A stretch of 64,000 nt of DNA, from assembly GCA_020348925.1 (NCBI GenBank), contig CP070758.1:1770030-1834029 (forward strand), given 5' to 3'. Positions 1 through 62,684 of the stretch are shown here, piece by piece. How positions within the stretch are numbered: the first letter of the stretch is position 1; every line of letters begins with the position of its first letter. The notes beneath the pieces are model-generated. The model saw only the letters and a program-made list of their open reading frames with translations. It did not search any database and was not told the origin of the DNA. The DNA comes from Gemmatimonadota bacterium. Its GTDB lineage: Bacteria; JBHIER01; G020348925. A program made the position numbers and the translations under genes.

Positions 1-76
1 CATTGCGAGCTTCGATGACTGAAGTCACTTTTTAGAAATGATATCGTAAAAATTTGAACCTGTCATTGCGAGCCCC
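1..76 (+). repeat. Two direct copies of (tgt)cattgcgagc, 63 bp apart. The second copy is followed by a cccgg-ccttctc-ccggg hairpin. A reverse-complement copy lies at 7027..7040.
   Basis: cattgcgagc at 1-10 (truncated by the window edge) and tgtcattgcgagc at 61-73. ctcgcaatgaca at 7028-7039 is the reverse complement. The motif is related to the TGTCATTSC repeat termini elsewhere in the window. Confidence 0.4.
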
Positions 77-192
77 GGCCTTCTCCCGGGATTCTCACTG
101 TGCTCAAGAAACAACGATATGATTCACGACAGCATGTTCCTCCGTCTCTGACAGCCATGCGTCCGACGTGTCTCGACCTCATCGTGTGTCCA

Positions 193-6825: not shown

Positions 6826-7076
6826 AAGGATGGATTGGGAATAGGGATTGGGAAAGGAGAAACGTCACCGTTTGCAGCAGAGTCTAACGAGATCGTGGCA
6901 GTCCGGGGGATTGGTACGATATAGTGAATGCGACGTTTTTGCTCACCCCATCGAATACATCCAATGAAAGAGGTCCAGGCGATTTTTCGTGATGCAGTCT
7001 CATGCCCAGAGGAGAATGCTTCGTTCGAGCTTTCACTCGCAATGACAGTTTCGATGATAAAAATTGCAGGTCGAAA

Positions 7077-9620
7077 CTAACTTATGACTTGCGGGAAAAA
7101 TGTGATGTCGCCGAAGGCACGGCCCTCCGGGTCCGTGATGCGGAAGTAGAAGCCCCATTCGCCCGTCTTCTGGCAGACTTTGATCAGAACCGTATTCGTA
7201 CCTTCCAGTAATGCGACGGGAATGATATCATTATCGATGTAGGCTCCCCGGCGCCTGTTATTCAACCAGACCTCTTCGCCGTTGAGCCAGATTTTGGTCG
7301 CTTCGTTCGTTCCTACCCGGAGCTGGGCCTGTCGCAGGGTCGGGGAATGGAAGGTGAGAAGCCCGTAGGCAACGGTCCATTTGTCCGGATTCAGAAGCTC
7401 CTTCAGATTGACATAGCCATCGAAGAGATTGTCCCCAGCCTGTCGCCACCGGACTTTCCCCCCCTTGCCCTTATACGCTCTGTCGAGCTGTATCTCCTTC
7501 TCCGGCGGAAACTTTCGATGGAACCCCCCCTTATTTTCGAAGGGGCCGATAACCCACCAATCGGTCTCATGAGGGGTGCCTGTGGCGGTCAATTCCCCTC
7601 TGAGACGCTCCTCATCCCCGATGGTTTTCAAATATTCAAAAAGGAGATATATCAAACTCGTCTCCAGGGCAGTATTCTCGGTTTCGCGTGAGATCCGAAT
7701 CATCTCCTCAAAGAAATTCTGTTTGTCCTCGAGATCCCCAGAACTGCCGGCGATTGCTTCGGAGATGTAGTTCGCCTGATACCAGTCCATGCCCAACCCC
7801 GTCTCGATCGTGAGAAACGTCTGAGCGGCTTCCTGAAACTGAGCTACGGCCACGTTGTTCTCCCCTCGTTTCAGAGAGATCACGCCTCGCAGTAAAGCAC
7901 ATTCGGCCCTATTGAAATCGTTCTGGGCCAGCTTTATGGCTTTTTCAATGAAGGGCTCCATCTCTTCGGGATGCAGATCGTTGAACAGACTGGTCCAGAC
8001 AAAGCTTTGGACGATACTGAAATTGGTCTCATCCAAAATTCTATCTCCTGTGTTCCAAAACCATTCCTCGCGGAATTTTTTGGCAGCGACCGAATCGCCC
8101 ATCTCCTCGTATAAATCACTTATGAGAGTGACCATTGGAAAATTGTTGGGATACACCTTCATGGCCTCTCGAAACTCCTTTACCGCCTTTTCATGTTTTC
8201 CTTTTGCCCACAGGGCTTCTCCGGCGAGGCGATGACTGAATGATTTGATATTGTTACTCGGTGCTGCCTCGTAATATCGACGAAAAGCACGCAAGGCTTC
8301 GTCAAATTCACCCTGGTCCATGTATGCGCCGCCCATGTGCTCCCAGGGAAAGTGGAAATCGGATTTCAATCTCAAGGCCTCCTTATACTCATGAATGGCC
8401 TCGTCGAGATGGCCGGCCATCTGATAGATCTCTCCCATACTGTCGCGAGGATTCGGTTCATCAGGTGCCAGCTCCAGATATCGCAGGAGACTTTCGACCG
8501 CTTTGTCATGCATACCCCGAGAAGAGTAGGCATATCCCAGGAGATTGTACACAAGTTTGTAGGTTTTATCTATGCTCAGGGCTTCTTCAAACTGGGCAAT
8601 GGCCTCGTCAAAACGACTCAGAGCGTAATAGACGGATCCCAATCTATACCGCGCTTCTTTGTCCTTTGGAAAAACCTGAACCATGCGCTCATAGGTTTCG
8701 ATGATCTTTTTCGTATCACCCTGAACACTCGCATCGAGGGCCATAATGTTGTATCTCTCACGCTCAGTAACGCGATCGGCCAAGGCCACCGCCTTCCTCA
8801 CCACCCGCCGGGTATCATCGCTCCGACCCAAACCCGAATAAGCGCTGGCCAGACGAGCGTAGGCCGTGGCGAAGGTCGTATCTATTTCCACCGCCCTTTC
8901 AAACCGCTCGGCCGCCTCCTTATAAAAAACTTTGTACAACAATTCCAAGCCCTCGGCAAAAAAGCGGTAGGCTTCAATTGAATTGGTCGTGACGTCGGCC
9001 AGGTCCTGGTCAAATTCGACGACCCCTTTCAGCGTCAGCTTTAAACCGTCCCGAATCTGTCGGGTCAGTTCGTCAACTTTGGTAAAGACTTCCTCCAGAC
9101 CGCTGCACTCGACCCTCTCCGCCTTGAGCATATTTCCTGTCCGGGTATCAAAAAGCTGAGCGTCGATACGGATATGCTCACCCACACGGGCAAAGCTACC
9201 CACCAAGGCCGTCTCCAAACGACCCCCTCTGGCAATCGAGATCGCCAAGGCGGGGTCAAGAGACCTGTCCTCAGGAACCCCCATTCTTTCCTTCAGGGTT
9301 GTCAATGCATGTTCGCCCACCACGTTCACATAGCGGGATTGGGAGAGATCCGTAATCAACATCTCCATCAAACCACGCTCCATCCATTCAAGATCCTCGT
9401 CCTCGGTCACATTATCGAAATAGAAGACGACGATGGAACGGCGTTCTTCAGGCTGAATCTGCAAAGTGGTGGCCAACCGAGAGGACTCCTGGGTCTGACG
9501 AAGGGCATCATTGGTCAGCTTGATCTTCTGGCCAGCCTCCCTCTTCGAGCACCCCGGAAGCACCACACCCAGAGTCCATATAAGACCAATGATGATAATA
9601 TGTCGAATCGCAGCTTTCAT
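7077..9620 (-). CDS. TPR-repeat lipoprotein (847 aa) with an N-terminal TolB-N/CsgG-like periplasmic domain and a C-terminal beta-sandwich-like domain.
   Basis: Lipoprotein signal MKAAIRHIIIIGLIWTLGVVLPGC. At least 10 TPR-like 34-aa repeats (AYxxLGxxY...A...Y patterns) between about residue 230 and 640. Confidence 0.65.
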   Translation of the reverse strand: MKAAIRHIIIIGLIWTLGVVLPGCSKREAGQKIKLTNDALRQTQESSRLATTLQIQPEERRSIVVFYFDNVTEDEDLEWMERGLMEMLITDLSQSRYVNVVGEHALTTLKERMGVPEDRSLDPALAISIARGGRLETALVGSFARVGEHIRIDAQLFDTRTGNMLKAERVECSGLEEVFTKVDELTRQIRDGLKLTLKGVVEFDQDLADVTTNSIEAYRFFAEGLELLYKVFYKEAAERFERAVEIDTTFATAYARLASAYSGLGRSDDTRRVVRKAVALADRVTERERYNIMALDASVQGDTKKIIETYERMVQVFPKDKEARYRLGSVYYALSRFDEAIAQFEEALSIDKTYKLVYNLLGYAYSSRGMHDKAVESLLRYLELAPDEPNPRDSMGEIYQMAGHLDEAIHEYKEALRLKSDFHFPWEHMGGAYMDQGEFDEALRAFRRYYEAAPSNNIKSFSHRLAGEALWAKGKHEKAVKEFREAMKVYPNNFPMVTLISDLYEEMGDSVAAKKFREEWFWNTGDRILDETNFSIVQSFVWTSLFNDLHPEEMEPFIEKAIKLAQNDFNRAECALLRGVISLKRGENNVAVAQFQEAAQTFLTIETGLGMDWYQANYISEAIAGSSGDLEDKQNFFEEMIRISRETENTALETSLIYLLFEYLKTIGDEERLRGELTATGTPHETDWWVIGPFENKGGFHRKFPPEKEIQLDRAYKGKGGKVRWRQAGDNLFDGYVNLKELLNPDKWTVAYGLLTFHSPTLRQAQLRVGTNEATKIWLNGEEVWLNNRRRGAYIDNDIIPVALLEGTNTVLIKVCQKTGEWGFYFRITDPEGRAFGDITFFPQVIS

Positions 9621-34615: not shown

Positions 34616-35496
34616 AGCCGCTTTTCCGGGATAGAGCGAGGCAGCTTCGCAAAAGAGTCCGTAAAGAGTTTGAGTTCTATGTTCTCTCTGAGTTGTTATT
34701 TGTATCCTCCTGTTTTTAAGATCGCCCTGGGATTCCTGGCCCTGAGTGAAACTCTATGGGACCTCTGCCCCGATGAAGAACTTCGTTTAGCTTGTAAATC
34801 TCATAACACTTTCGTCGTCAACGAGCCGATTGCTAAAACGGCTCGACTCGGCAGCGTTTCCTGGGAATCTTTCGCTTTTATGGGCCGTGAAGCCCGTGGA
34901 TTATGCGCGGTACCACTTCAAAGGAATTGCTGGAAGTCTTTTAAGTGTTTGGGTTTTTGGGTCCACAATGATTCCAACAGAGTCAAGGGCAATAACCCCT
35001 GATATGGGCTCGACATCATCAGGGCCGAAGATGATTCTGCCTGCAGTGATATCATCCATGAACTCCAAAACGCAGGCCCAAATTCCAATTCTCTCGGAGT
35101 TCCTTCAGTCGGTTCATAGGTAGTTTTACCTACAGGCATAATCCCTGTTTTCTTGAGCTCCTTTGCGGGAGCGAGACAATCGGACTCCCGGTATAAACCG
35201 AGAAATCTGCCTCACACTTTCCTGGTGAGTCGACTTTGCCCTGACCGTAACCGTAACATACCTCAATCCCATCGTAATCCCTCCCTTACGTATATTAGAT
35301 CCAGACTCGATATTAATAACTTAATACGTGAAAAATCATCCCATTGCACTTTTCCTAACAAATGCAGCACAAACTGTTCTTCACAACAGCGTAATTTTTG
35401 CATGCTAAGTAAAGTCCGTTTTATTATATGTGCAGAGCGCAATAATAATAGTGGGTCGAAATGATTTTGCCAACTCATTTCCAACCTGGTTTATTC

Positions 35497-35608
35497 ATGA
35501 GCTGTCATTCCGGCTGGAATGCCGGAATCTCCTCGATTGATGCACCGGGTTCTCTATTCAGGAGATTCCGGGATAAACCCGGCATGACAGAGTATACAAT
35601 TGCGGGAG
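35497..35608. repeat. Roughly 110-bp nested palindromic element with TGTCAT termini, similar to a REP/MITE-like repeat family.
   Basis: Left arm: ctgtcattccggctggaatgccggaatctcc. Right arm reverse-complement: ctgtcatgccgggtttatcccggaatctcc. Inner perfect 11-bp inverted repeat: ccggaatctcc/ggagattccgg. Each arm also contains its own hairpin (attccggc-tggaat-gccggaat). It lies in a 1.1 kb non-coding gap. Confidence 0.5.
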
Positions 35609-35717
35609 ATACTACCGAACAAAGCTCAACACCAGTATTCATTATAATTCCATAAATATATTCGTGTTACGTTGCGTTTGCAGTGGTTTTTTAAAATTAT
35701 CCAGGCTAAATCCCAAA

Positions 35718-36104
35718 TCATGCCATCGCCACACACTCGATCTCAATTTCGACGTCCTTGGGCAGTCGGGCGACCTGGACGGCGGAGCGGGCGGGTGGGT
35801 TCTTCCCAAAATATTGATCATAGACCTCATTCATGGCGGCAAAGTCGTCCATGTCTTTCAAAAAGACCGTCACCTTCACCACTTTGTCGAGACTCGATCC
35901 CCCGGCCTCAAGGAGGGCCTTGAGGTTCTCCAAAACCCGCCTCGCCTGTACCTGAATATCACCGGAAACAAGCTCTCCTGTCTCAGGATCCATCGGAATC
36001 TGACCGGCCGTAAACAACAATTCACCGCTGCCTACCTTGACAGCCTGACTGTACGGCCCAATCGCCGCCGGGGCCTTGTCGGTTTGGATGACCTTTTTTG
36101 ACAT
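35718..36104 (-). CDS. ridA: RidA (YjgF/TdcF) family reactive enamine/imine deaminase.
   Basis: 128 aa. [49 protein letters not shown] are the RidA signature. Confidence 0.85.
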
Positions 36105-45937: not shown

Positions 45938-48691
45938 ATGTTTTTCAGACTCATTCTTCTTTTTGTAAGTACTGCTATGTTTTGGCCAGTTCTGGTGCAC
46001 GGCCAGGAGATTCTCAAGCAATTGCAGGCGCCGGGCTCTGAACCGAGGGGCTTGACCTGGGACGGCCACTCCCTGTGGTGTGCTGATGCCTCGGCACAAA
46101 GGGTCTATCAAATCGATCCTGACGACGGTCAGATCATCTCCTCATTCGACTACTCTATGGACTTCCAGTACGGAGGGCTGGGCTGGAGCCCCGAGGGATA
46201 TCTTTGGATCACAGATTACCGGGAGAGTCAAAGCTGGTTCGACAAGGTCCACCCGACATCGGGCAGCGTGATCTCCTCGTTCCACTGCCCAGGCGGGTGA
46301 ACCGCTCGAGGTGCAGGGGTGGCCAGTCTGGCCATCGACACTCTCTGGTACTCCGACAGGAGGCAAAAATATATCGGTAAAACGACCACATCAGGGTATT
46401 TGGTCGAAAACATTGAAACGTTCGACTCATTGATTCGCGACATAGCCTGGGACGGGACCCATATCTGGGCCATATCACTCGAGGGAACGATCAAGAAATT
46501 CAGCACCTCAGGCGATCTGATCGAGACATACGCCGGGCTCCTCAGCGGCGGATGGGGGCTGACCTATGATGGTGCCTATGTGTGGGCCTCCGATCCGGGA
46601 ACGAACAAAATTTACAAACTTCTCTTCCCGGGCTTGGGCGACAAAACACCACCTTCCGCTCCCGCGCTCACATCCGACACGCACCCATCCCAGGACGACT
46701 GGTACAGGCAGGACAGTCCCACCCTCAACTGGACCCCCCCTGCAGATCCCTCGGGCATAAGCGGATACAGTTACGCAGTGAACCACGAATCCACATTTTC
46801 TCCGGATACAACCAGTGAGGGTTGGCTGACAACCGCCACGTACAGCGACCTGACTGACGGCACATGGTATTTCCACTGCCGGGCCAGAGACGGCGTAGGC
46901 AATTGGAGCACGGCGAATCATTACCGTATCAGAATCGACACACAAGCCCCTGCCCCCCCCATCAACCCCACCGTTTTTCCCAGCGGATGGACCAACGACA
47001 GTATTTTCCAAGTCCACTGGACTAATCCTCCCGACAGTTCGGCCATAGCCGGTGTCTATTACAAGATCGGACCACCTCCTGAACACGGGGAAGATGGGAC
47101 GTTTTCTTCGACGATACCTCTATTTCTCGCAGCCCCGGCTGAAGGCGAAAACGCTGTGCATCTCTGGCTCGAAGACGGCGCAGGGAACAAGGACGAGGCC
47201 TCTCGCGCCGATGCCGTTCTCCCGTATGATGCCACCGGACCTCAGGAGGGGACTATTTTAATAAACGCCGGCGCTGAAGCTACAGTATCAACCACGGTCA
47301 CTTTAGCCAATCTAAACGCTGTTGATGCCTTGAGCGGCATGGAACCAGGGGCACAGATGCGGTTCAGCAACGACGGTACGACCTGGTCTCCGGCCGAAGA
47401 CTATACGAGCCTCAAGACCAACTGGGATCTCTCCTCGTATGGGGGGACGAGTCAACCGGGACCCAAGACGGTCTCCGTCATATACCGCGATGCCGCCGGC
47501 AACTGGTCAGATCCCTTCAGCGACGACATTCTTCTCTCTGAACCCCTGGCTATTGTCACCGATTCCCTGCCCGGAGGTGCTGTGGGCTTTGCCTACGAGG
47601 AGACTTTGGTTGCAACAGGAGGGGTACCGCCTTATAGCTGGAGCATATCCTCCGGAGCGCTTCCCAACAATCTGACGCTCACTCCCGACGGCACAATCAC
47701 CGGTGTGCCTGATGAAGCCGGTCCTTCGAATTTTATCGTCGAGGCGATCGACCCCTATTCGAGTTCTCAGTTCCGAGCTTACACAATCACCATATTCATC
47801 GGGGCAACCAAAGGGGACATAAACGGCGACTCCGAGGTCGATCTTCGCGATATACTCCCTGTTGTCGGATATATTCTGGGACGAAGCGGGTTGACGCAGT
47901 CGCAGCTCTGGTCGGCTGATGCCTTTCCTGACGGATCAATCGACCTGTCCGACCTGGTGGCTTTAGCCCATCTCATCGTCGGGCAATCGTCCGGAGCCGC
48001 GAGGGTCTCATATTCTGGGGGAGGTCCATCCGTTCTCCGGGCCTCACACACATATGATGCTCCATCATCAACCGTGACTCTGTTCCTCGACAACGGAGTA
48101 CCTGTCGGTGGCCTTCAACTCGAGGTACGATTACCCCGGGACGCAACGCTTCGCAAGCCCCCTCAAGTCACCGACCGATGCGGATCTTTCACCGTGGACT
48201 ATACCAAGAATCACGACGATCTCACCGTCCTGACGTACACCCTCAACGGAGACGCGATCTTACCCGGGTCAGGACCCCTCTTGATGCTGTCTTTATCCTG
48301 CCCGGAAGATACGAAGGAACAGAACGCCATAATAGAAAAAGCATTTCTGGTCGGTGTCAGGGGCGAACCGCTCCCTCTCGACATTCGGACAGAATCTGTA
48401 GTGACTGCCCCCGTGGCACACGGTTTGGCACGCAACTATCCCAATCCTTTCAATCCTGAGACGTCCATCAGTTTTTCACTTCCTGCTGAGAACACCGTTT
48501 CCGTAATCATCTATGATGCTTTGGGCCGCAGGGTGAGAACAATCGCCGAGGAGACATTGAAGGCCGGAGTTCACACCATGCTTTGGGACGGACGTGATGA
48601 AGGCGGCCACGCATCGCCGAGCGGAGTCTATTATTGCAGAATTGACGGGGGAGATGTCGTTCACACACTAAAGTTGGCCCTCATCAGATAA
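45938..48691 (+). CDS. Secreted beta-propeller / PPxAP-module / putative-Ig / dockerin / cohesin-like protein ending in a T9SS C-terminal sorting domain. It is interrupted by one in-frame TGA at 46298-46300, presumed recoded (selenocysteine?).
   Basis: Signal peptide MFFRLILLFVSTAMFWPVLVHGQ. The ORFs 45863..46300 and 46319..48691 share a frame and are separated only by a TGA after ...FHCPGG. The second ORF has no signal peptide yet ends in a T9SS CTD (NYPNPFNPETSISFSLP...SGVYYCRI). Propeller-blade repeats: GLTWDGHSLWCAD...VYQID, IAWDGTHIWAIS...IKKF, GLTYDGAYVWASD...IYKL. Dockerin: GDINGDSEVDLRDILPVVGYIL...DGSIDLSDLVALAHLIVG. Confidence 0.6.
46298..46334 (+). promoter_or_regulatory. In-frame UGA with a downstream hairpin (tggccaGTCtggcca, 46320-46334). 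Candidate bacterial SECIS-like recoding element.
   Basis: The TGA at 46298-46300 is followed 19 nt later by a 6-bp perfect stem with a GUC loop. The E. coli fdhF SECIS apical loop is (A)GGUC(U). A homologous position in the paralog 48881..51319 has the same arrangement. Confidence 0.5.
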
Positions 48692-48880
48692 TATTTCCGT
48701 AGCAATGACATCATTTCCGCTTTAAATTGGAATATTTTACAGGACCCTTTCGGGATCGTGCGGAAGTTCCAAAAGGTCACTCCCGGTTTGGGGGAAAACG
48801 GTCTTCTCCTCAAAAGAGGAATAATCCCGAACCCCACGCTTCGGGCGGTGCGAACCAAGTTCGAAAGAGAGAGGTGGCTT

Positions 48881-51319
48881 ATGAAACAATGGCAACGGTT
48901 GCTTTCGGTTTTTCTTGTATCACTCCTACCGGTCGCCGGATTCGCTCAACGCATTGTCAAAGAGTTTGATACTCCGGGTCCTGAGCCGAGGGGCTTGACC
49001 TGGGACGGAACATATCTCTGGTGCGCTGATGCCGAAGAGGATTCCATATTCAAGATCGATCCTGAGTCAGGTCAAGTTATTCACTCTTTCTATTTCAGCA
49101 TGACTTTTGAATTTTCCAGAGGAGGAGGAATAGCGTGGAGCGGCGACGGTGCCCTGTGGGCCACCCGTAGTACCTATTTTTATAAACTTGACGCGAACAC
49201 CGGTCAGAGCATAACAAACTTTCACTGTCCTGGGGGCTGAAGCGTCCGACCGGCGGGCGTGACCCGCCAAGGGAGTTACCTCTGGTATTACGATCAAACA
49301 TCCAATTACGTTGGGAAAACGACCACCGGAGGGAGTCTTCTGGCCAATTTCATCCCGAGCGACAACACTCTCCGAGACCTTTGTTGGGACGGCACCCATC
49401 TCTGGACCATGAACATCTCAGGCGAGATAAAGAAATATACCACATCCGGAGTTCTCGAAGAAACCGTTACCGATCTTCTCCCAAGAGGATGGGGCATAAC
49501 GTTCGACGGCTCACATCTGTGGGCCTCGGATCCTCAAACCGATAAGATCTATCAAATAGCACTCTCCGATGACTCAGATCCCCCCGGAGCGCCGCTGATC
49601 CAAAGCGCAACGCATTCCTTCGATTCAGCCTGGTACAGCGATCCCGATCCGGTTTTCACCCTCACGCAACCTGAAGATCCTTCGGGTATCGCCGGATACA
49701 GCTATCTCCTGGATGAACACGCTGAGACCGTCCCTGACAATTCTGTCGACGGAACAGGAACGACGGTCGCCTATGTATCCATCCAGGATGGAAAATGGTA
49801 TTTCCACTGTCGGGCTCAGGATGGGGCCGGGAATTGGGGCGAGACAAATCACTACAGAATTCAGATCGATACGACACCTCCGGCAGGTGGCACCATCCTC
49901 ATCGAGGATGACGCCGACACGACGAAATCCTTAGTGGTAACCTTGGGCAATCTCCAAGCCGAAGATACTCTCTCGGGAATGGGTTCCGGTGCAGCCATGA
50001 AATTCAGCAACTACGGATCCGTCTGGTCAGACGAAGAGCCTTTCAGGGACACCCGCACGGGCTGGGATCTCTCACAATATGGCGGAAATGATTCCTCGGG
50101 TCTGAAAAGGGTCTTCGTCTCTTTCCGAGATGTGGCCGGGAACTGGTCCCAGCCCCTCTTCGATGAGATCATCTACAGCGCACCTCTTGTCGTTGAAACA
50201 GAATCGCTGAGTGCAGGTACCCTGGGTTTCGCTTATGCCGAAACGCTTTTCGCCTCAGGCGGTTGGCCACCCTATGAGTGGGAGATTGGTGGGGGTGCAT
50301 TACCTCCTGACCTGGAACTCGATACTACTGGCATCATATCAGGGAAACCGGATTCGGCCGGAACATTCACTTTTACGGTGACTGTAACTGACGCCAACAT
50401 GTCCGCAACAATGAAGGATTATACAATCACCATTCACATTGAGGCCGAAAAGGGAGACGTGAACGGCGACGCGGATGTCAATATTCTTGATATCATCGCC
50501 GTTGTTCGATATATCCTCGGATTGGAGGAGTTTACCCCTCTTCAAATATGGGCGGCTGACGTCATAACCGACGGCGCCATCGATGTAACGGACATCCTGG
50601 GCATCGTCAACCTCATCCTCGAATCGCCTGGTGGAGGACGGTTGATGCTCTCACAGGGGCAGGCCCTCATCGGCCTCGAAGAAGACACACGCTTTCCCAA
50701 TGCCCACAATACCACAGCTGTTACCTTGAAGAGTCAAATACCTGTGGCTGGAATCCAGCTGAACATAAGGCTGGCTTCAGGTTCAAAGCTAACACGCCCG
50801 CCTCAATTGACACAGTGGAGTCAAACTTTTCAATGCAGCTATAAAATCAACGAGAATAATGTCTTACTTCTGTTGTACAGCCTGTCACACGAGATCATTT
50901 CACTGCCCTATCCTGTTCCAATTGTGAATCTCCGTATCCCTGAGGATGCCTACCCCGTATACATTGAAAGTGTCATCGTCGCTGACAAAAACGGCCAGCC
51001 AATCACCGTCGGCAACGATCCTGAAAAGCTGAGCTCTGCCCGGCAGGGGACGGACGTTCAAAGCCATCCGAATCCCTTTAATACGGAAACGTTCCTGTCG
51101 TTCACCCTTGAAAAGAGAGAATACGTCACACTGTCTGTCTACAATGTCCTGGGTCAAATGGTCAGAACACTCGTGAGCGGGGAGTGTGATCCGGGCGAAC
51201 ATGTGGTGAGCTGGGACGGCACGGACTGGACCGGCAATACACTTCCCAGCGGAGTCTATTTCAGCCGAATAGAAGTGGGAAATATCGGAACCGTTAGGGA
51301 GATGCTCCTTTTGAAGTGA
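48881..51319 (+). CDS. Paralog of 45938..48691 with the same domain order (beta-propeller, PPxAP module, putative Ig, dockerin, cohesin-like, T9SS CTD). It is interrupted by an in-frame TGA at 49238-49240, presumed recoded.
   Basis: RBS gagaggtgg upstream. Signal peptide MKQWQRLLSVFLVSLLPVAGFAQ. The ORFs 48758..49240 and 49259..51319 share a frame and are split only by a TGA after ...FHCPGG. Dockerin: GDVNGDADVNILDIIAVVRYIL...DGAIDVTDILGIVNLIL. T9SS CTD: HPNPFNTETFLSFTL...YNVLGQMVRTLV...SGVYFSRI. Confidence 0.6.
49238..49268 (+). promoter_or_regulatory. In-frame UGA with a downstream hairpin (ggcgggCGUGAcccgcc, 49252-49268). Candidate SECIS-like recoding element.
   Basis: The TGA at 49238-40 is followed 11 nt later by a 6-bp GC stem with a CGUGA loop (a GU dinucleotide in the apical loop). 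It is positionally equivalent to the hairpin at 46320-46334, although the sequences differ. Confidence 0.5.
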
Positions 51320-52112: not shown

Positions 52113-53468
52113 TTCAAAAACCTCGCGAAAAAAACCGCTACTCCTAAGGTGAAAAATACCGATGTCTGCTCATTATGCTCACTGCGAAACGAACGAGCCT
52201 CTGAGCAAACTCTCTCTGAATAAATTGTAAAACTGAAACTCTGCAAACCCGCATCAGCGCTGTTGGCAGCACCGCGACCCCACATCACCTAAAGCAACTC
52301 CAAATATAATGCAAAAAATTGTAAAATGCAAACTACAAATTTAAGAGCGGTTGATTTTCAGCGAACGCCCGAAGGACTCCGGTGATGTTCCGGTTTCTCA
52401 ATGTTCTGAAGCCCGAGCCCAAAGACCGTCAGGCGAACGGGACCCTTCGATGACGTTTCTGGTGAGCGGAGCCTGGCCGGAGCTTACCGAAATGTTGAAT
52501 TGTTCGTGACAGGCTCTTATTTTCCGCCCTCCGAATCCCCGCAAAACCGTGGATGAGTTCAAAAAGAGAGCGCAGGGGGACGGACGACGATCCCGGCGAA
52601 GGCTGGGGCTGTTTTCCCTTTTTGCTTCGAATACATTTCGGAAATTCCCAAAATTTTCGAAATGTATATCAGGTGGTTTGGAGAAAAGGATCGCTTCCCT
52701 CCGGGAGGCGGCAGGATTTCGATGTGAGCTGGCGGAGCAGCGAATGCACCATATCCTGAAATCTTTCGGGACCGGAAGTGTTGAGCGATGCGAATACTTC
52801 TTCAATGACGGTAAAAAAGGAAGAGCACAACATCTTTCCCCTTAGAAGCAAGAAGTGAACGAAGGTCAAAACCGGCCTCTTTCCACTCCTGACACCATGC
52901 CTTCACTTCGTGCATTCCGAGCATCTCACCGACGAGAGGAAACAGATCGCTCACAACTTCCTGCCACGAAACATGTCTCTATTATTGACCAGGAGTCTCA
53001 CCTGACAGAGAGCAGGCCGGGTGAAAGCGCGGGGCGAACGTCCTCACGCGCTGAGGAGGATGCCTGTGAAGGGAGGAGCATCTCGTGAATCAAAGTGAGA
53101 AACAGAAACCGACAAGTGCAATTGAGGCAGGTCGTAAAGGGAAGGGGAGCCAATTATAACCAGATCCGTATAAAGAAACGAAAGTCCGGCTCGACGGGAT
53201 TTCGCCCTCCAAAAAGTGATCGGGACTTGTAGATTTTGGCTGGGAGAAAGGGGTTGGGATCCGAGATTCCTCACCATTTTTATACATGACGACCAAAATC
53301 TTTGCGAATGGAACGGTTGTGCATGACTCCCTTGTGTTATCTCCCCATATCAAGAGAGGACTGGGGGGTTGGAAACCGTTCACAGCAAATCTCGGTACAT
53401 CTGCGCAATTCCTTGTGACGGTCCGTGAAGCATCCATACGGGATTTTGGGAGCGAGGTACGATTACGC

Positions 53469-53785: not shown

Positions 53786-54232
53786 CTACCTCCTGACGTC
53801 TCTGTATCGATCCCTTTTCCAAAAATAGAGCCGCTCTCTCAGAACCGAGATAAAAAGAATGGCCACCCCTACAATCAGACCCAGAATTGCCACTTTCACA
53901 AAAAGCCCTACGGTTGGATCGGCAATAAACTCCTCAACCGCCTTATAGCCGCCGTAGCAAAGCAGAAGAATCCCACAAATGGAGAGCAATATCCAACCGA
54001 CACCTCTTTCAATACGGTTGTAGATTACCGACCAATAATCCCGCCAGATTTTATCCTCAGGGCTCGTCAGTTTCATTCCGTCTGTCACCTCCTTCAATTT
54101 TCTGTAATGCTCCAGCTCTGACGAGCATTCGGCGCAACTTCGGACGTGTCCCAAGAATGCACCCCTGTCGTGCTCGTTCAACTCATCGTCAATGTAGCCC
54201 ATCATCAGATTCTTAAACTTCTCGCAGCTCAT
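53786..54232 (-). CDS. zf-HC2 anti-sigma factor (single TM).
   Basis: N-terminal HVRSCAECSSELEH (HxxxCxxC zinc motif), followed by a TM stretch WILLSICGILLLCYGG...VAILGLIVGVAILFISVL. It lies downstream of the ECF sigma gene. Confidence 0.75.
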   Translation of the reverse strand: MSCEKFKNLMMGYIDDELNEHDRGAFLGHVRSCAECSSELEHYRKLKEVTDGMKLTSPEDKIWRDYWSVIYNRIERGVGWILLSICGILLLCYGGYKAVEEFIADPTVGLFVKVAILGLIVGVAILFISVLRERLYFWKRDRYRDVRR

Positions 54233-54290: not shown

Positions 54291-54866
54291 TCACTCCACT
54301 TCAGTATGTTGTTCCAATTTCTGTCTCAAAGCTCGTCTGGCATAATACAAGCGGGACATGACTGTCCCCTGGCTGCACGAGAGAACCTCGGCAATCTCAC
54401 GATACGTGAGGTTTTGAAAATGACGCAGAATGATGATCTCCCGATCGCGGGGCTTGAGCGAAGAGATGGCCTTCCACACCCTGTCCTTTACGGCATCCCT
54501 CTCCACCATAAGGTTCGGATCAAAAGAGAGGGAGAGCTCCTCCCTCTCAACGCGTTCGCTCAAATCCTCCAAAGCGATCCGGGGATTGGCCCTTTGCTCC
54601 CGTAACCAGTTAAAACACAGATTTTTCAGAATCTGATAGAACCACGGGAAGAAACGTCGATTCGGATCGAATTTCCTGCGATGGCGATAGACCCTCACAA
54701 AAGCTTCCTGTGAAAGATCCAGGGCGACATCATGCTGGCCGACCAATCCTAAAGCGATGAAATACGCCTTGCGCATGTATTTCTTGACGAGAAACTCGAA
54801 GGCTTTCGTTTCCCCCTTTCGCCAGCGTACTACGAAATGTGTTTCATCATCCATCGCTCGGTTCAT
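54291..54866 (-). CDS. ECF-subfamily RNA polymerase sigma factor (sigma-24-like).
   Basis: Region 2 (FEFLVKKYMRKAYFIALGLVGQHDVALDLSQEAFVRVY) and region 4 (LTYREIAEVLSCSQGTVMSRLYYARRAL) motifs. Confidence 0.85.
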   Translation of the reverse strand: MNRAMDDETHFVVRWRKGETKAFEFLVKKYMRKAYFIALGLVGQHDVALDLSQEAFVRVYRHRRKFDPNRRFFPWFYQILKNLCFNWLREQRANPRIALEDLSERVEREELSLSFDPNLMVERDAVKDRVWKAISSLKPRDREIIILRHFQNLTYREIAEVLSCSQGTVMSRLYYARRALRQKLEQHTEVE

Positions 54867-62487: not shown

Positions 62488-62630
62488 CTATCTCAATCTT
62501 CCCTTCGAACACTGAAGACTATCCTGGATCATTCATAAAAATGGTCAGAATTTAGACTCATGAACATTATTGGCGTTGAACTCCGCCCGTGTATGCTTTC
62601 CATAGGAACCCTGCATGTCATTCCCGCACG

Positions 62631-62684
62631 GAGTCTACCCCGTATTCCATTACGGGGGCTGGAATGACAGCTTGTGAATAGAGC
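62631..62684. repeat. 54-bp palindromic element (TGTCATTCC ... GGAATGACA) with an internal hairpin. Same repeat family as 35497..35608.
   Basis: tgtcattcccgcacggagtctaccccgtattccattacgggggctggaatgacag. Terminal 9-bp inverted repeat plus an inner cccgtaat/attacggg hairpin. The 16-mer agctgtcattccRgcc is shared with the 35497 locus. It lies in a 735-bp non-coding gap. Confidence 0.5.

What the first reader, a model, noticed from the sequence alone, without database searches (positions are those of the whole stretch)
35497..35608. Family of short palindromic TGTCATT(G/C)C-terminated repeats in intergenic regions
At least four loci share the termini TGTCATT[GC]C[GC][GA]G and its reverse complement:
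- 35497-35608: a nested ~110-bp palindrome with an 11-bp perfect inner inverted repeat.
- 62631-62684: tgtcattcc...ggaatgaca.
- 61-73: tgtcattgcgagc, plus a truncated copy at 1-10.
- 7027-7040: reverse-complement copy.

The 16-mer agctgtcattccRgcc is shared between the 35.5 kb and 62.6 kb loci. All copies lie in unusually long non-coding gaps. This pattern fits a REP/MITE-like mobile or structural repeat family, or reiterated regulator binding sites.
Basis: seen in the sequence. Interest (0 to 1): 0.5.

Follow-up and report, generated by a model that had tools for sequence, protein, structure and literature searches.

The report
TGTC-tagged hairpin repeats, Ssn-nuclease type
The short palindromes are real intergenic copies of a known, cross-phylum hairpin repeat family (CGTC/TGTC-tagged REPs, Neisseria dRS3/NTS); elsewhere small GIY-YIG "Ssn" nucleases cut these hairpins as single-stranded DNA, so the finding is ordinary rather than new.

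Summary
The motif is real. TGTCATTSC occurs 6 times against 1.56 expected, and all six copies are intergenic (P about 1.5e-5).

The window holds two head-to-head doublets with their tags facing outward. E4 is at 35503-35589 and E5 at 62616-62669. There are also three single or decayed 'ATTGCGAG' units, at 1-10, 61-96 and 7012-7047.

The anatomy is an unpaired TGTC tag, a stem starting with AT, and a C after the palindrome. This matches the CGTC-tagged REP superfamily of Di Nocera 2013, which includes Neisseria dRS3. It also matches the NTS/Ssn-related motifs of Chenal 2025, which the 94-aa GIY-YIG nuclease SsnA binds and cuts only as single-stranded DNA.

I reproduced the repeat-gene association in independent data: unit density is 17-fold higher next to ssn-like genes. 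I extended it to the 'ATTGCGAG' subtype, which flanks a distinct 'KAGSR' clade of GIY-YIG genes.

The window has no ssn, RAYT or transposase gene, so activity in this genome is inferred, not shown.

Verdict: a new member of a known kind in an uncultured FCB-group bacterium. Interest is low.

The parts
35503..35529 (+). E4L: an intact CC-type unit, TGTC | ATTCCGGC | tggaat | GCCGGAAT | C.
   Evidence: It has an 8/8 bp stem starting with AT, a 6-nt loop, and a C after the palindrome. It is one mismatch from the published SRM search string.
35564..35589 (-). E4R: the inverted partner unit, TGTC | ATGCCGGG | tttat | CCCGGAAT | C.
   Evidence: It has a 7/8 bp stem, a 5-nt loop, and a C after the palindrome. 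It is one mismatch from the SRM string.
35502..35590 (.). E4: a head-to-head (tags outward) doublet of E4L and E4R with a 34-nt spacer (35530-35563). It folds as an 89-nt hairpin on either strand.
   Evidence: Inverted repeat I1. DNA fold -21.9 and -22.1 kcal/mol, z = -4.4 and -4.2, 0 of 200 shuffles as good. It lies 128 nt downstream of the RidA gene stop at 35718.
62616..62669 (.). E5: a 54-bp palindrome, TGTC ATTCCCGC [30 nt] GCTGGAAT GACA. The 30 nt contain an inner hairpin, CCCCGTA (62638-62644), ttccat, TACGGGG (62651-62657). It is probably two outward-facing unit heads that pair with each other, that is, a fused or degenerate doublet.
   Evidence: I18; z = -4.6 and -5.2. The base after the palindrome is G, not the C found in 83 of 84 validated units. 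It has 3-4 mismatches to the SRM string.
61..96 (+). E2: a GC-type single unit, TGTC ATTGC GAG C, then an upper hairpin CCCGG ccttctc CCGGG. The 3' closing arm is truncated (ATTCTC instead of CGRRGCAATC).
   Evidence: No significant fold (z = -0.5). Six mismatches to the SRM string. The head is identical to GC-type units that flank KAGSR-clade GIY-YIG genes.
1..10 (+). E1: the head of another GC-type unit (CATTGCGAGC), cut off by the window edge and in tandem with E2 at a 60-bp distance.
7012..7047 (-). E3: a GC-type single unit, TGTC ATTGC GAG tgaaagctcgaa CGAA GCATT C. It is canonical except for one substitution in the 3' arm (GCATT for GCAAT).
   Evidence: It lies between convergent genes, 30 nt after the stop (7077) of the TPR gene 7077-9620.
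48702..48710 (-). A doubtful TGTCATTGC 9-mer 11 nt after the stop of gene 46319-48691, with no hairpin and no further similarity. It is a relic or a chance match.
   Evidence: 4 mismatches to SRM.

Best explanation
**What the copies are**
They are members of the CGTC/TGTC-tagged REP superfamily. This family is the same as Neisseria dRS3/NTS and the 'Ssn-related motifs' (SRM).

**Unit anatomy**
- An unpaired (Y)GTC tag.
- A hairpin whose stem starts A-T, T-A.
- A C immediately 3' of the palindrome.

**How they work elsewhere (published)**
- Such units flank genes for about 95-aa single-domain GIY-YIG nucleases (Ssn), with the tags facing outward.
- Ssn binds the folded hairpin only in single-stranded DNA and nicks a few nucleotides 5' of the tag.
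- Binding depends on the stem and the 3' C. Cutting depends on the GTC.

**What the window holds**
- It holds only gene-less copies: one well-preserved head-to-head doublet (E4), one fused doublet (E5), and three single 'ATTGCGAG'-type units that are partly decayed.

**Inferred steps (not shown)**
- The doublets are miniature derivatives of the unit-ssn-unit cassette, analogous to REPINs versus RAYT genes. They were seeded into intergenic DNA when an Ssn enzyme was active in this lineage.
- E4L and E4R would still be substrates.
- E5, E2 and perhaps E3 are relics.
- Any effect on neighbouring transcripts, for example as 3' stem-loops, would be secondary.
For: **In the window**
- The motif is enriched and exclusively intergenic.
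- E4L and E4R have the tag, an AT-start 8-bp stem, 5-6 nt loops, a C after the palindrome and the HH arrangement.
- Each is one mismatch from the SRM string HGTCWYN(0-2)YYVSBRHN(0-5)WNVSBRGN(0-2)RNCYNB.

**Family identity**
- The definition in PMC3733652 fits: the tag 'changed to TGTC' in many repeats, stems of 8-9 bp that almost invariably start with AT, HH dimers predominant, spacers of 20-100 bp.
- The canonical relative CTGTCATTCCCGCGCAGGCGGGAATCCAGG hits Neisseria (at least 40 places per record), Azospirillum, Cupriavidus and sphingomonads. These are the genera Di Nocera et al. list.

**Partner protein (literature)**
- PMC11893778 shows that SsnA cuts NTS only as ssDNA and that ssnA genes are flanked by the repeats.

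**Partner protein (my independent checks)**
- A family of about 95-aa GIY-YIG proteins was found by protein search alone.
- 23 of 30 loci have a hairpin-validated unit within 200 nt of the gene, and 13 of 30 are flanked on both sides with tags outward.
- Unit density is 5.16 per kb near the gene versus 0.30 per kb farther away, and the base after the palindrome is C in 83 of 84 units.
- FCB-group examples are included: Latescibacterota (L334) and Melioribacteraceae (L335 and L336).
- The Neisseria member is 94 aa and has Y6, Y17 and E64, the residues mutated in the paper. NTS copies sit on both sides of it.

**GC-type units (as E1-E3)**
- 14 metagenome loci have a GC-type unit 60-90 nt before a GTLY[IV]GVT-coding gene.
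- Unconditioned checks agree: L352, P0300 at 10 places, P0243 at 6 places, and over-called N-termini such as 'MSLRGAKRRSNP'.

**Dynamics**
- A 328-bp indel made only of about 100-bp head-to-head doublets separates two samples at one syntenic site.
Against: - No ssn/GIY-YIG gene lies in the 64 kb (tblastn, hmmsearch, Pfam of likely ORFs). Whether this genome has one is unknown.
- No window unit matches the published SRM string exactly.
- The tails are CTC, not the usual CCA.
- E4L has a 6-nt loop where 4-5 nt is described.
- E5 lacks the 3' C.
- E1-E3 do not fold significantly.
- There are only about 7 unit heads in 64 kb, and relatives' loci are nearly free of them (38 raw 9-mer hits in 1.32 Mb, few genuine). 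The family may be inactive here.
- Whether Ssn moves the repeats has not been shown by anyone. Chenal et al. only raise the possibility.
- The 14 GC-type loci were selected by a pattern that imposed the geometry. The unconditioned support covers only 3 genes plus 5 over-called ORFs.
Confidence: 0.72

Rival explanations
1. The hairpins act mainly as RNA. Transcribed at gene 3' ends, they would stabilise mRNA or end transcription, as proposed for classical REPs. The sequence family would then be maintained for that role.
For: - The units lie downstream of genes. E3 is 30 nt after a stop codon and E4 is 128 nt after the RidA stop.
- In phage contigs the median distance from the upstream stop is 38 nt.
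- E4 and E5 form very stable stems.
- Di Nocera et al. consider many such REPs 'plausibly transcribed'.
Against: - No T-tract or terminator-like match lies at the units.
- There is no sense/antisense preference relative to flanking co-directional genes (24 versus 25), although the tag and 3' C are strand-specific.
- SsnA does not interact with RNA of the same sequence.
- There is no Rfam family.
- An RNA role does not explain the clustering around GIY-YIG genes.
Confidence: 0.12
2. E4 and E5 are MITEs: deletion derivatives of a DDE-transposase insertion sequence whose terminal inverted repeats begin TGTCATT, moved in trans by that transposase.
For: - E5 has 9-bp terminal inverted repeats (12 nt at 92%). 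E4 has CTGTCAT...ATGACAG ends.
- Their sizes (54 and 89 bp) are MITE-like.
- TGT...ACA ends are common among DDE elements (my own knowledge).
Against: - There are no target-site duplications. The flanks are gagc/gagt for E4 and gca/gct for E5.
- Single units (E2 and E3) carry the same head without a partner end.
- Each E4 half is a self-contained hairpin with family-specific features.
- No transposase is in the window.
- The same heads flank a nuclease gene, not a DDE gene, in more than 40 loci.
Confidence: 0.05
3. They are classical REP/REPIN elements mobilised by a RAYT (HUH Y1) transposase, as the first reader proposed checking.
For: Doublets of inverted hairpins in intergenic DNA are the REPIN architecture (PMC3733652).
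Against: - The tag is TGTC, not GTAG.
- Di Nocera et al. report that no tyrosine-transposase gene is flanked by CGTC units.
- No Y1 transposase domain was found in the window's ORFs.
Confidence: 0.04
4. They are operator sites for a dimeric transcription factor that recognises TGTCATTCC...GGAATGACA.
For: They are palindromic and intergenic. E5 lies 130 nt upstream of the Na/Ca-exchanger gene start.
Against: - The half-site spacing differs widely between E4 and E5.
- The three single units have only one half-site.
- Most copies lie at gene 3' ends.
- The identical motif is found across phyla and in phages.
Confidence: 0.03

Closest known systems
NTS / Ssn-related motifs (SRM) with SsnA GIY-YIG ssDNA nucleases (Chenal et al. 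2025, PMC11893778)
   Same: - The (Y)GTC tag, AT-start hairpin and C after the palindrome are shared.
- E4L and E4R are one mismatch from the SRM string.
- The tags-outward arrangement mirrors NTS-ssnA-NTS.
- FCB-group relatives (Latescibacterota, Melioribacteraceae) have ssn genes flanked by very similar TGTCATTCCCG... units.
   Different: - No ssn gene lies in the window.
- No unit matches the SRM string exactly.
- The tails are CTC, not CYRG or CCA.
- The ATTGCGAG units (E1-E3) fall outside the published SRM string (3-6 mismatches). They go with a different GIY-YIG clade (KAGSR motif).
CGTC-tagged REP superfamily, families CGTC-1 to -4 (Di Nocera, De Gregorio & Rocco 2013, PMC3733652); includes Neisseria dRS3 and Rickettsia RPE-4/RPE-6
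   Same: - The TGTC tag variant, 8-bp stems starting with AT, HH dimers with 20-100 bp spacers and intergenic location are all shared.
   Different: - The host phylum is new. The nearest relatives are Ca. Stahlbacteria, Krumholzibacteriota, Eisenbacteria and WOR-3 at no more than 60% aa identity. The paper lists five other phyla.
- The E4L loop is 6 nt, and the tail is not CCA.
- The apparent copy number is low.
- GC-type units have a conserved 2x3 internal loop (GA / G-N-R) and a hypervariable upper stem. That differs from the simple 8-9 bp stems the paper describes. Its figures were not available to me.
GTAG-tagged REPs / REPINs with RAYT transposases
   Same: - Both are a short tagged hairpin with inverted doublets as the likely replicating unit.
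- Both have a single-copy gene for an ssDNA-hairpin enzyme flanked by the repeats.
   Different: - The tag differs (GTAG).
- The enzyme class differs (HUH Y1 transposase rather than GIY-YIG nuclease).
- For RAYTs, both ends are processed on one strand.
Bacterial MITEs (e.g. Neisseria Correia/NEMIS elements)
   Same: Both are small, non-coding, palindromic and intergenic.
   Different: MITEs have 15-30 bp terminal inverted repeats and target-site duplications and derive from DDE insertion sequences. None of these features is seen here.

Membership tests
CGTC-tagged REP superfamily (Di Nocera 2013) | Unpaired 4-nt tag CGTC (or TGTC/CCTC) abutting the stem | tested here: met
   All seven unit heads read TGTC immediately before ATT(G/C)C or ATGCC.
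CGTC-tagged REP superfamily (Di Nocera 2013) | Stem of 8-9 bp beginning A-T, T-A | tested here: met
   E4L is 8/8 and E4R is 7/8, both starting with AT. E5 is 7/8 but spans 30 nt. This is not met by E2, which lacks its 3' arm. E3's lower stem is 4/5.
CGTC-tagged REP superfamily (Di Nocera 2013) | Loop of 4-5 nt and a 3-nt tail close to CCA | tested here: inconclusive
   E4R has a 5-nt loop. E4L has a 6-nt loop, or 4 nt if read as a 9-bp stem with one mismatch. The tails are CTC: the first C is conserved and the rest is not.
CGTC-tagged REP superfamily (Di Nocera 2013) | Mostly HH dimers (tags outside) with 20-100 bp spacers, in intergenic DNA | tested here: met
   E4 has tags outside and a 34-nt spacer. 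E5 has tags outside. All six 9-mer hits are intergenic (P = 1.5e-5).
CGTC-tagged REP superfamily (Di Nocera 2013) | Repeated family in the genome (tens to thousands of units) | not testable with these tools
   Only 64 kb of this genome is available. The nearest genomes are at most 60% identical at the protein level. The first metagenome scan found no relative.
NTS/SRM-Ssn system (Chenal 2025) | Match to the SRM search string HGTCWYN(0-2)YYVSBRHN(0-5)WNVSBRGN(0-2)RNCYNB | tested here: not met
   There are 0 exact matches in the window. E4L and E4R have 1 mismatch each, E5 has 3-4, and E2 and E3 have 6 and 4. The canonical NTS and L010 controls have 0 mismatches.
NTS/SRM-Ssn system (Chenal 2025) | GTC directly 5' of the palindrome (needed for cutting) and C directly 3' of it (needed for binding) | tested here: met
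   E4L, E4R and E3 have both. E5 has G after the palindrome. In 84 validated units next to ssn genes, the 3' base is C in 83.
NTS/SRM-Ssn system (Chenal 2025) | Cognate ~95-aa single-domain GIY-YIG (cd10448) gene flanked by the units | tested here: not met
   None is in the window (and the Pfam). The rest of the genome cannot be examined.
NTS/SRM-Ssn system (Chenal 2025) | Strand-specific binding and cleavage as ssDNA only | not testable with these tools
   This needs purified enzyme and oligonucleotides.
GTAG REP / REPIN-RAYT | GTAG tag and a RAYT (Y1 HUH) gene flanked by the repeats | tested here: not met
   The tag is TGTC. No Y1 transposase domain is in any likely ORF of the window.
MITE | Terminal inverted repeats plus target-site duplication | tested here: not met
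   Inverted termini are present, but no direct duplication flanks E4 or E5.
Neisseria dRS3 (strict) | ATTCCC-N8-GGGAAT | tested here: not met
   E4L is ATTCCGGC-N6-GCCGGAAT. E5 has ATTCCC but its partner is 30 nt away. These are the same superfamily, not the Neisseria sequence type.

The most novel reading that the evidence does not exclude
The 'ATTGCGAG' units (E1-E3 here) may be a distinct, so far undescribed class of Ssn sites.
- They have a 5-bp lower stem ATTGC/GCAAT, a conserved asymmetric internal loop (5'-GA / 5'-G-N-R) and a hypervariable upper stem.
- They fall outside the published SRM search string.
- They pair with their own clade of GIY-YIG nucleases, marked by the motif REKQ[LI]K[AG]G[SN]R.
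- They have also spread at high density into genuine phage genomes whose fetched segments carry no ssn gene.
- This suggests trans-mobilisation during phage ssDNA replication, or a role as host restriction targets.
Probability: 0.55. Interest if true: 0.45.

Novelty: new member of a known kind. Interest (0 to 1): 0.25.

Why it matters
- For this window it mainly prevents mis-annotation. These hairpins generate spurious ORFs. ORF 35461-35655, for example, reads '...DKPGMT...' straight through E4.
- It extends the host range of CGTC/TGTC-tagged repeats to an uncultured FCB-group lineage.
- More generally, it shows the family can be recognised from a handful of copies by its tag, AT-start stem and 3' C.
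- It also shows that a second hairpin type travels with a second clade of the new Ssn ssDNA nucleases. That is useful to anyone mining these enzymes as site-specific ssDNA tools.

Tried and rejected
- **Literature search by raw motif strings:** it returned only primer noise.
- **Rfam:** no family at gathering score on the window, and none at E<=1 on five repeat-rich loci.
- **Idea that Logan contigs break at the repeat:** withdrawn. L001 and L002 end at a SNP about 45 nt away, and another Logan contig runs straight through E3.
- **Presence/absence comparison in relatives:** not possible.
  - The best genome relative is only 60% identical at the protein level.
  - The metagenome scan with the neighbouring 651-aa protein found nothing.
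  - The exact Na/Ca-exchanger protein is not on record.
- **Search for genes bracketed by inverted units in the first 200 loci:** none found.
- **Bacteroidota-type 83-aa GIY-YIG family as partner of the GC-type units:** rejected. Those genes sit next to tRNA genes instead.
- **Isolated GC-type units on Methylosinus, Calothrix and Halomonas replicons:** no GIY-YIG gene within 4 kb.
- **K-turn reading of the GC-type internal loop:** considered by eye and rejected, because the strand order of the bulge and the G-A pairs does not fit.
- **Terminator and promoter scans at the loci:** nothing above shuffle level.
- **Guess that 34901-35272 (minus strand) is a frameshifted small protease gene:** no support from Pfam or NCBIfam.
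- **Supplementary files of both key papers:** they held no sequences I could check.

Full report
**1. The observation**

TGTCATTSC occurs six times in the 64-kb window, at 61+, 7047-, 35503+, 48710-, 62616+ and 62669-. Dinucleotide-preserving shuffles give 1.56 +/- 1.09, and none of 100 shuffles reaches six.

I built a gene map from long ORFs and Pfam. About 84% of the window is coding, yet all six hits are intergenic (P = 1.5e-5).

Four of the six hits share CTGTCATTSC. Allowing two mismatches adds nothing beyond chance. No other repeat is shared among the intergenic gaps.

- The main palindrome is 89 bp (35502-35590).
- Its perfect inner inverted repeat is 12 bp.
- The 62.6 kb element lies at 62616-62669.
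- The 7 kb copy lies at 7036-7047.
- The shared word is a 15-mer, not a 16-mer.

**2. Anatomy**

E4 consists of two self-contained units that face away from each other.
- E4L is TGTC | ATTCCGGC | tggaat | GCCGGAAT | C (35503-35529, + strand).
- E4R is TGTC | ATGCCGGG | tttat | CCCGGAAT | C (35589-35564, - strand).
- A 34-nt spacer separates them.

E5 is TGTC ATTCCCGC [30 nt with an inner 7-bp hairpin] GCTGGAAT GACA. It reads as two outward-facing heads that pair with each other.

As single strands, E4 and E5 fold far better than shuffles (z = -4.2 to -5.2). The three ATTGCGAG copies do not (z = -0.5 to +0.4).
- E3 is canonical apart from one substitution in its 3' arm.
- E2 has lost its 3' arm.
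- E1 is cut off by the window edge.

The units have no T-tract and no terminator-like match. They match no Rfam family.

**3. Context**

The window is ordinary chromosome. It carries LepA, signal peptidase, HflX, sigma factors, transporters, and T9SS and dockerin surface proteins. There is no transposase, recombinase or GIY-YIG gene.

The closest genomes reach only 60% amino-acid identity for an acyl-CoA ligase. They are Ca. Stahlbacteria, Krumholzibacteriota, Eisenbacteria and WOR-3, all FCB-group candidate phyla. Their loci are almost free of the motif.

The same population occurs in runs SRR14739665 and SRR14739666 at 99.9-100% identity.

**4. The family is widespread**

It returned two recurring types.
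- The CC type is a perfect hairpin such as TGTC ATTCCCGC gcag GCGGGAAT CCAGG.
- The GC type is TGTC ATTGC GAG ... GCAAT C.

The two S positions are complementary in 104 of 145 hits. After collapsing duplicates and dropping short hairpins (122 sequences), 70% are complementary against 55% on permutation (maximum 67% in 1000 permutations). Full 8-bp hairpins number 11 against 1.3 expected.

GC-type units share a common architecture.
- A 5-bp lower stem.
- A conserved asymmetric internal loop, GA opposite G-(A/T/C)-(A/G).
- An upper stem of entirely variable sequence that still pairs.

**5. What is known**

Di Nocera, De Gregorio and Rocco (2013, PMC3733652) defined 'CGTC-tagged REPs'.
[quoted passage not shown] - Loops are 4-5 nt, and the tail is close to CCA.
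- They are mostly head-to-head dimers with the tags outside and spacers of 20-100 bp.
- They occur in five phyla. Neisseria dRS3 and Rickettsia RPE-4 and RPE-6 are members.
- No associated transposase was found.

The canonical CC-type 30-mer hits exactly their genera: Neisseria (at least 40 places per record), Azospirillum, Cupriavidus and sphingomonads.

Chenal et al. (2025, PMC11893778) then made three findings.
- dRS3 is the core of the 28-nt NTS, CGTCATTCCCGCGMAVGCGGGAATCYRG.
- ssnA genes (94 aa, single-domain GIY-YIG, cd10448) are flanked by these repeats across phyla.
- SsnA binds and nicks the NTS only as ssDNA. It does not act on dsDNA, RNA or the reverse strand.

In their mutational analysis, the C right after the palindrome matters most for binding. 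[quoted passage not shown]

**6. Independent test of the association**

A search with a remembered ~95-aa GIY-YIG consensus found a very large real family carrying PF01541. Members include Latescibacterota, Melioribacteraceae, Omnitrophica and cyanobacteria (alignment A1).

I examined 30 loci chosen by protein similarity alone: 28 viral and 2 from FCB genomes.
- 23 of 30 have a hairpin-validated (Y)GTCAT unit within 200 nt of the gene.
- 13 of 30 have one on each side with the tags outward.
- Unit density is 5.16 per kb near the gene and 0.30 per kb farther away.
- The base after the palindrome is C in 83 of 84 units.

The N. gonorrhoeae member is 94 aa. It has Y6, Y17 and E64, the residues mutated in the paper, and NTS copies on both sides. 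So this family is Ssn.

**7. The GC type**

GC-type units, including the canonical ones, miss the published SRM string by 3-6 positions.

A metagenome scan looked for a GC-type unit followed 60-90 nt later by codons for GTLY[IV]GVT. It gave 14 loci.
- All 14 encode a GIY-YIG protein: 13 full-length genes of 92-99 aa, and one cut short by the contig end.
- All 13 full-length proteins carry REKQ[LI]K[AG]G[SN]R, the 'KAGSR' clade.
- Seven have an inverted GC-type unit downstream.

That scan imposed the geometry, so I checked cases chosen by protein alone.
- The one KAGSR gene found in viral contigs (L352) is embedded in GC-type doublets.
- Over-called ORFs in the protein database begin 'MSLRGAKRRSNP', 'LRGAKRRGNL', 'SLRGGQRLDRRSNP' or 'SLRTQCSNP'. 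These are translated units.
- P0300 (10 places) and P0243 (6 places) have a unit(+) at -56 or -80. In most places they also have a unit(-) at +99 to +137.

At the P0300 site, two samples differ by a 328-bp indel. The indel is made only of about 100-bp head-to-head doublets with a conserved 28-nt spacer. This is direct evidence, in another organism, that the doublet is the unit that multiplies.

**8. Interpretation for the window**

E4 is a gene-less head-to-head doublet whose halves keep every feature that matters for Ssn: the GTC tag, the stem and the 3' C. It is the miniature counterpart of unit-ssn-unit.

E5 has G instead of the 3' C and no inner arms. It looks like a collapsed doublet.

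E1-E3 are GC-type singles in various states of decay.

- **Shown:** the family membership and the features of each copy.
- **Shown by others:** that such sites are cut by Ssn as ssDNA.
- **Inferred:** that an Ssn acts, or once acted, in this genome, and that Ssn activity spreads the units.

The RNA-level rival is weakened by two results. There is no orientation bias relative to transcription (24 sense versus 25 antisense among co-directional gene pairs). SsnA also does not interact with RNA of the same sequence. The MITE, RAYT and operator readings each fail a defining feature (see the membership table).

**9. Verdict**

This is a real but ordinary feature: new members of a known repeat kind in a poorly sampled lineage.

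The GC-type/KAGSR pairing and the density of these units in genuine phage genomes were not part of the finding. They are the only points that might interest a specialist.

Noticed in passing
L115 (1-13155), L117 (1-6577), L049 (3400-12750): Genuine phage contigs carry 6-17 GC-type TGTC unit heads in 6-13 kb. L115 has portal, terminase and DNA methylase genes. L117 has capsid and portal genes. The units are often in tandem arrays just after stop codons. No GIY-YIG gene lies in the fetched segments.
   Followed up: partly
L374 880-1360 versus L376 880-1030: At one syntenic site, between a Methyltransf_33 gene and an FGE-sulfatase gene, two samples differ by 328 bp. The difference is made entirely of about 100-bp head-to-head doublets of GC-type units with a conserved 28-nt spacer.
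   Followed up: yes
L192 20445-20666; proteins P0134, P0199, P0220: A separate ~83-aa Bacteroidota-type GIY-YIG family sits directly next to tRNA genes. Over-called N-termini read 'VRIPACHAGGREFESRRHR', and L192 has a tRNA just upstream. It is not associated with TGTC units.
   Followed up: partly
L335 and L336 (Melioribacteraceae contig JBGORM010000001.1, 203-216 kb): Two identical 95-aa ssn-like genes lie 6.5 kb apart, bracketing a molybdopterin oxidoreductase operon. Each is surrounded by 7-14 TGTC units.
   Followed up: partly
window 35461-35655 (+): An ORF reads straight through E4 and gives '...SCHSGWNAGIS...RFRDKPGMTEY'. This is the kind of spurious peptide this repeat family produces in annotations. 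P0052 ('MSFPRKRESRKS...') and P0344 ('MSLRGAKRRSNP...') are further examples.
   Followed up: yes
window 46319-48691 and 49259-51319: These are tandem paralogous surface proteins with Big_13, He_PIG, dockerin, FlgD_ig and a T9SS sorting tail. They share 56-103 nt DNA segments at 71-75% identity (repeats D1, D2 and D4).
   Followed up: no
window 52631-52667: A near-perfect palindrome, ATACATTTCGGAAATT / AATTTTCGAAATGTAT, with 16-nt arms at 94% and a 5-nt gap. It lies inside or next to the unannotated ORF 52398-52805, about 1.1 kb from the zf-HC2 anti-sigma-like gene (53786-54232) and the ECF sigma gene (54291-54866). It is unrelated to the TGTC family.
   Followed up: no
window 34901-35272 (-): Three short ORFs in different frames looked to me like a frameshifted small aspartic-protease-like gene. 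It would fill part of the 1.1-kb 'non-coding' gap next to E4. Pfam and NCBIfam gave no hit, so this is unverified.
   Followed up: partly
PLSDB records NZ_CP119140.1 and NZ_CP119142.1: Two 2.17-Mb Neisseria gonorrhoeae chromosomes are filed as plasmids in the plasmid collection. This happened to give access to the gonococcal ssnA locus.
   Followed up: no
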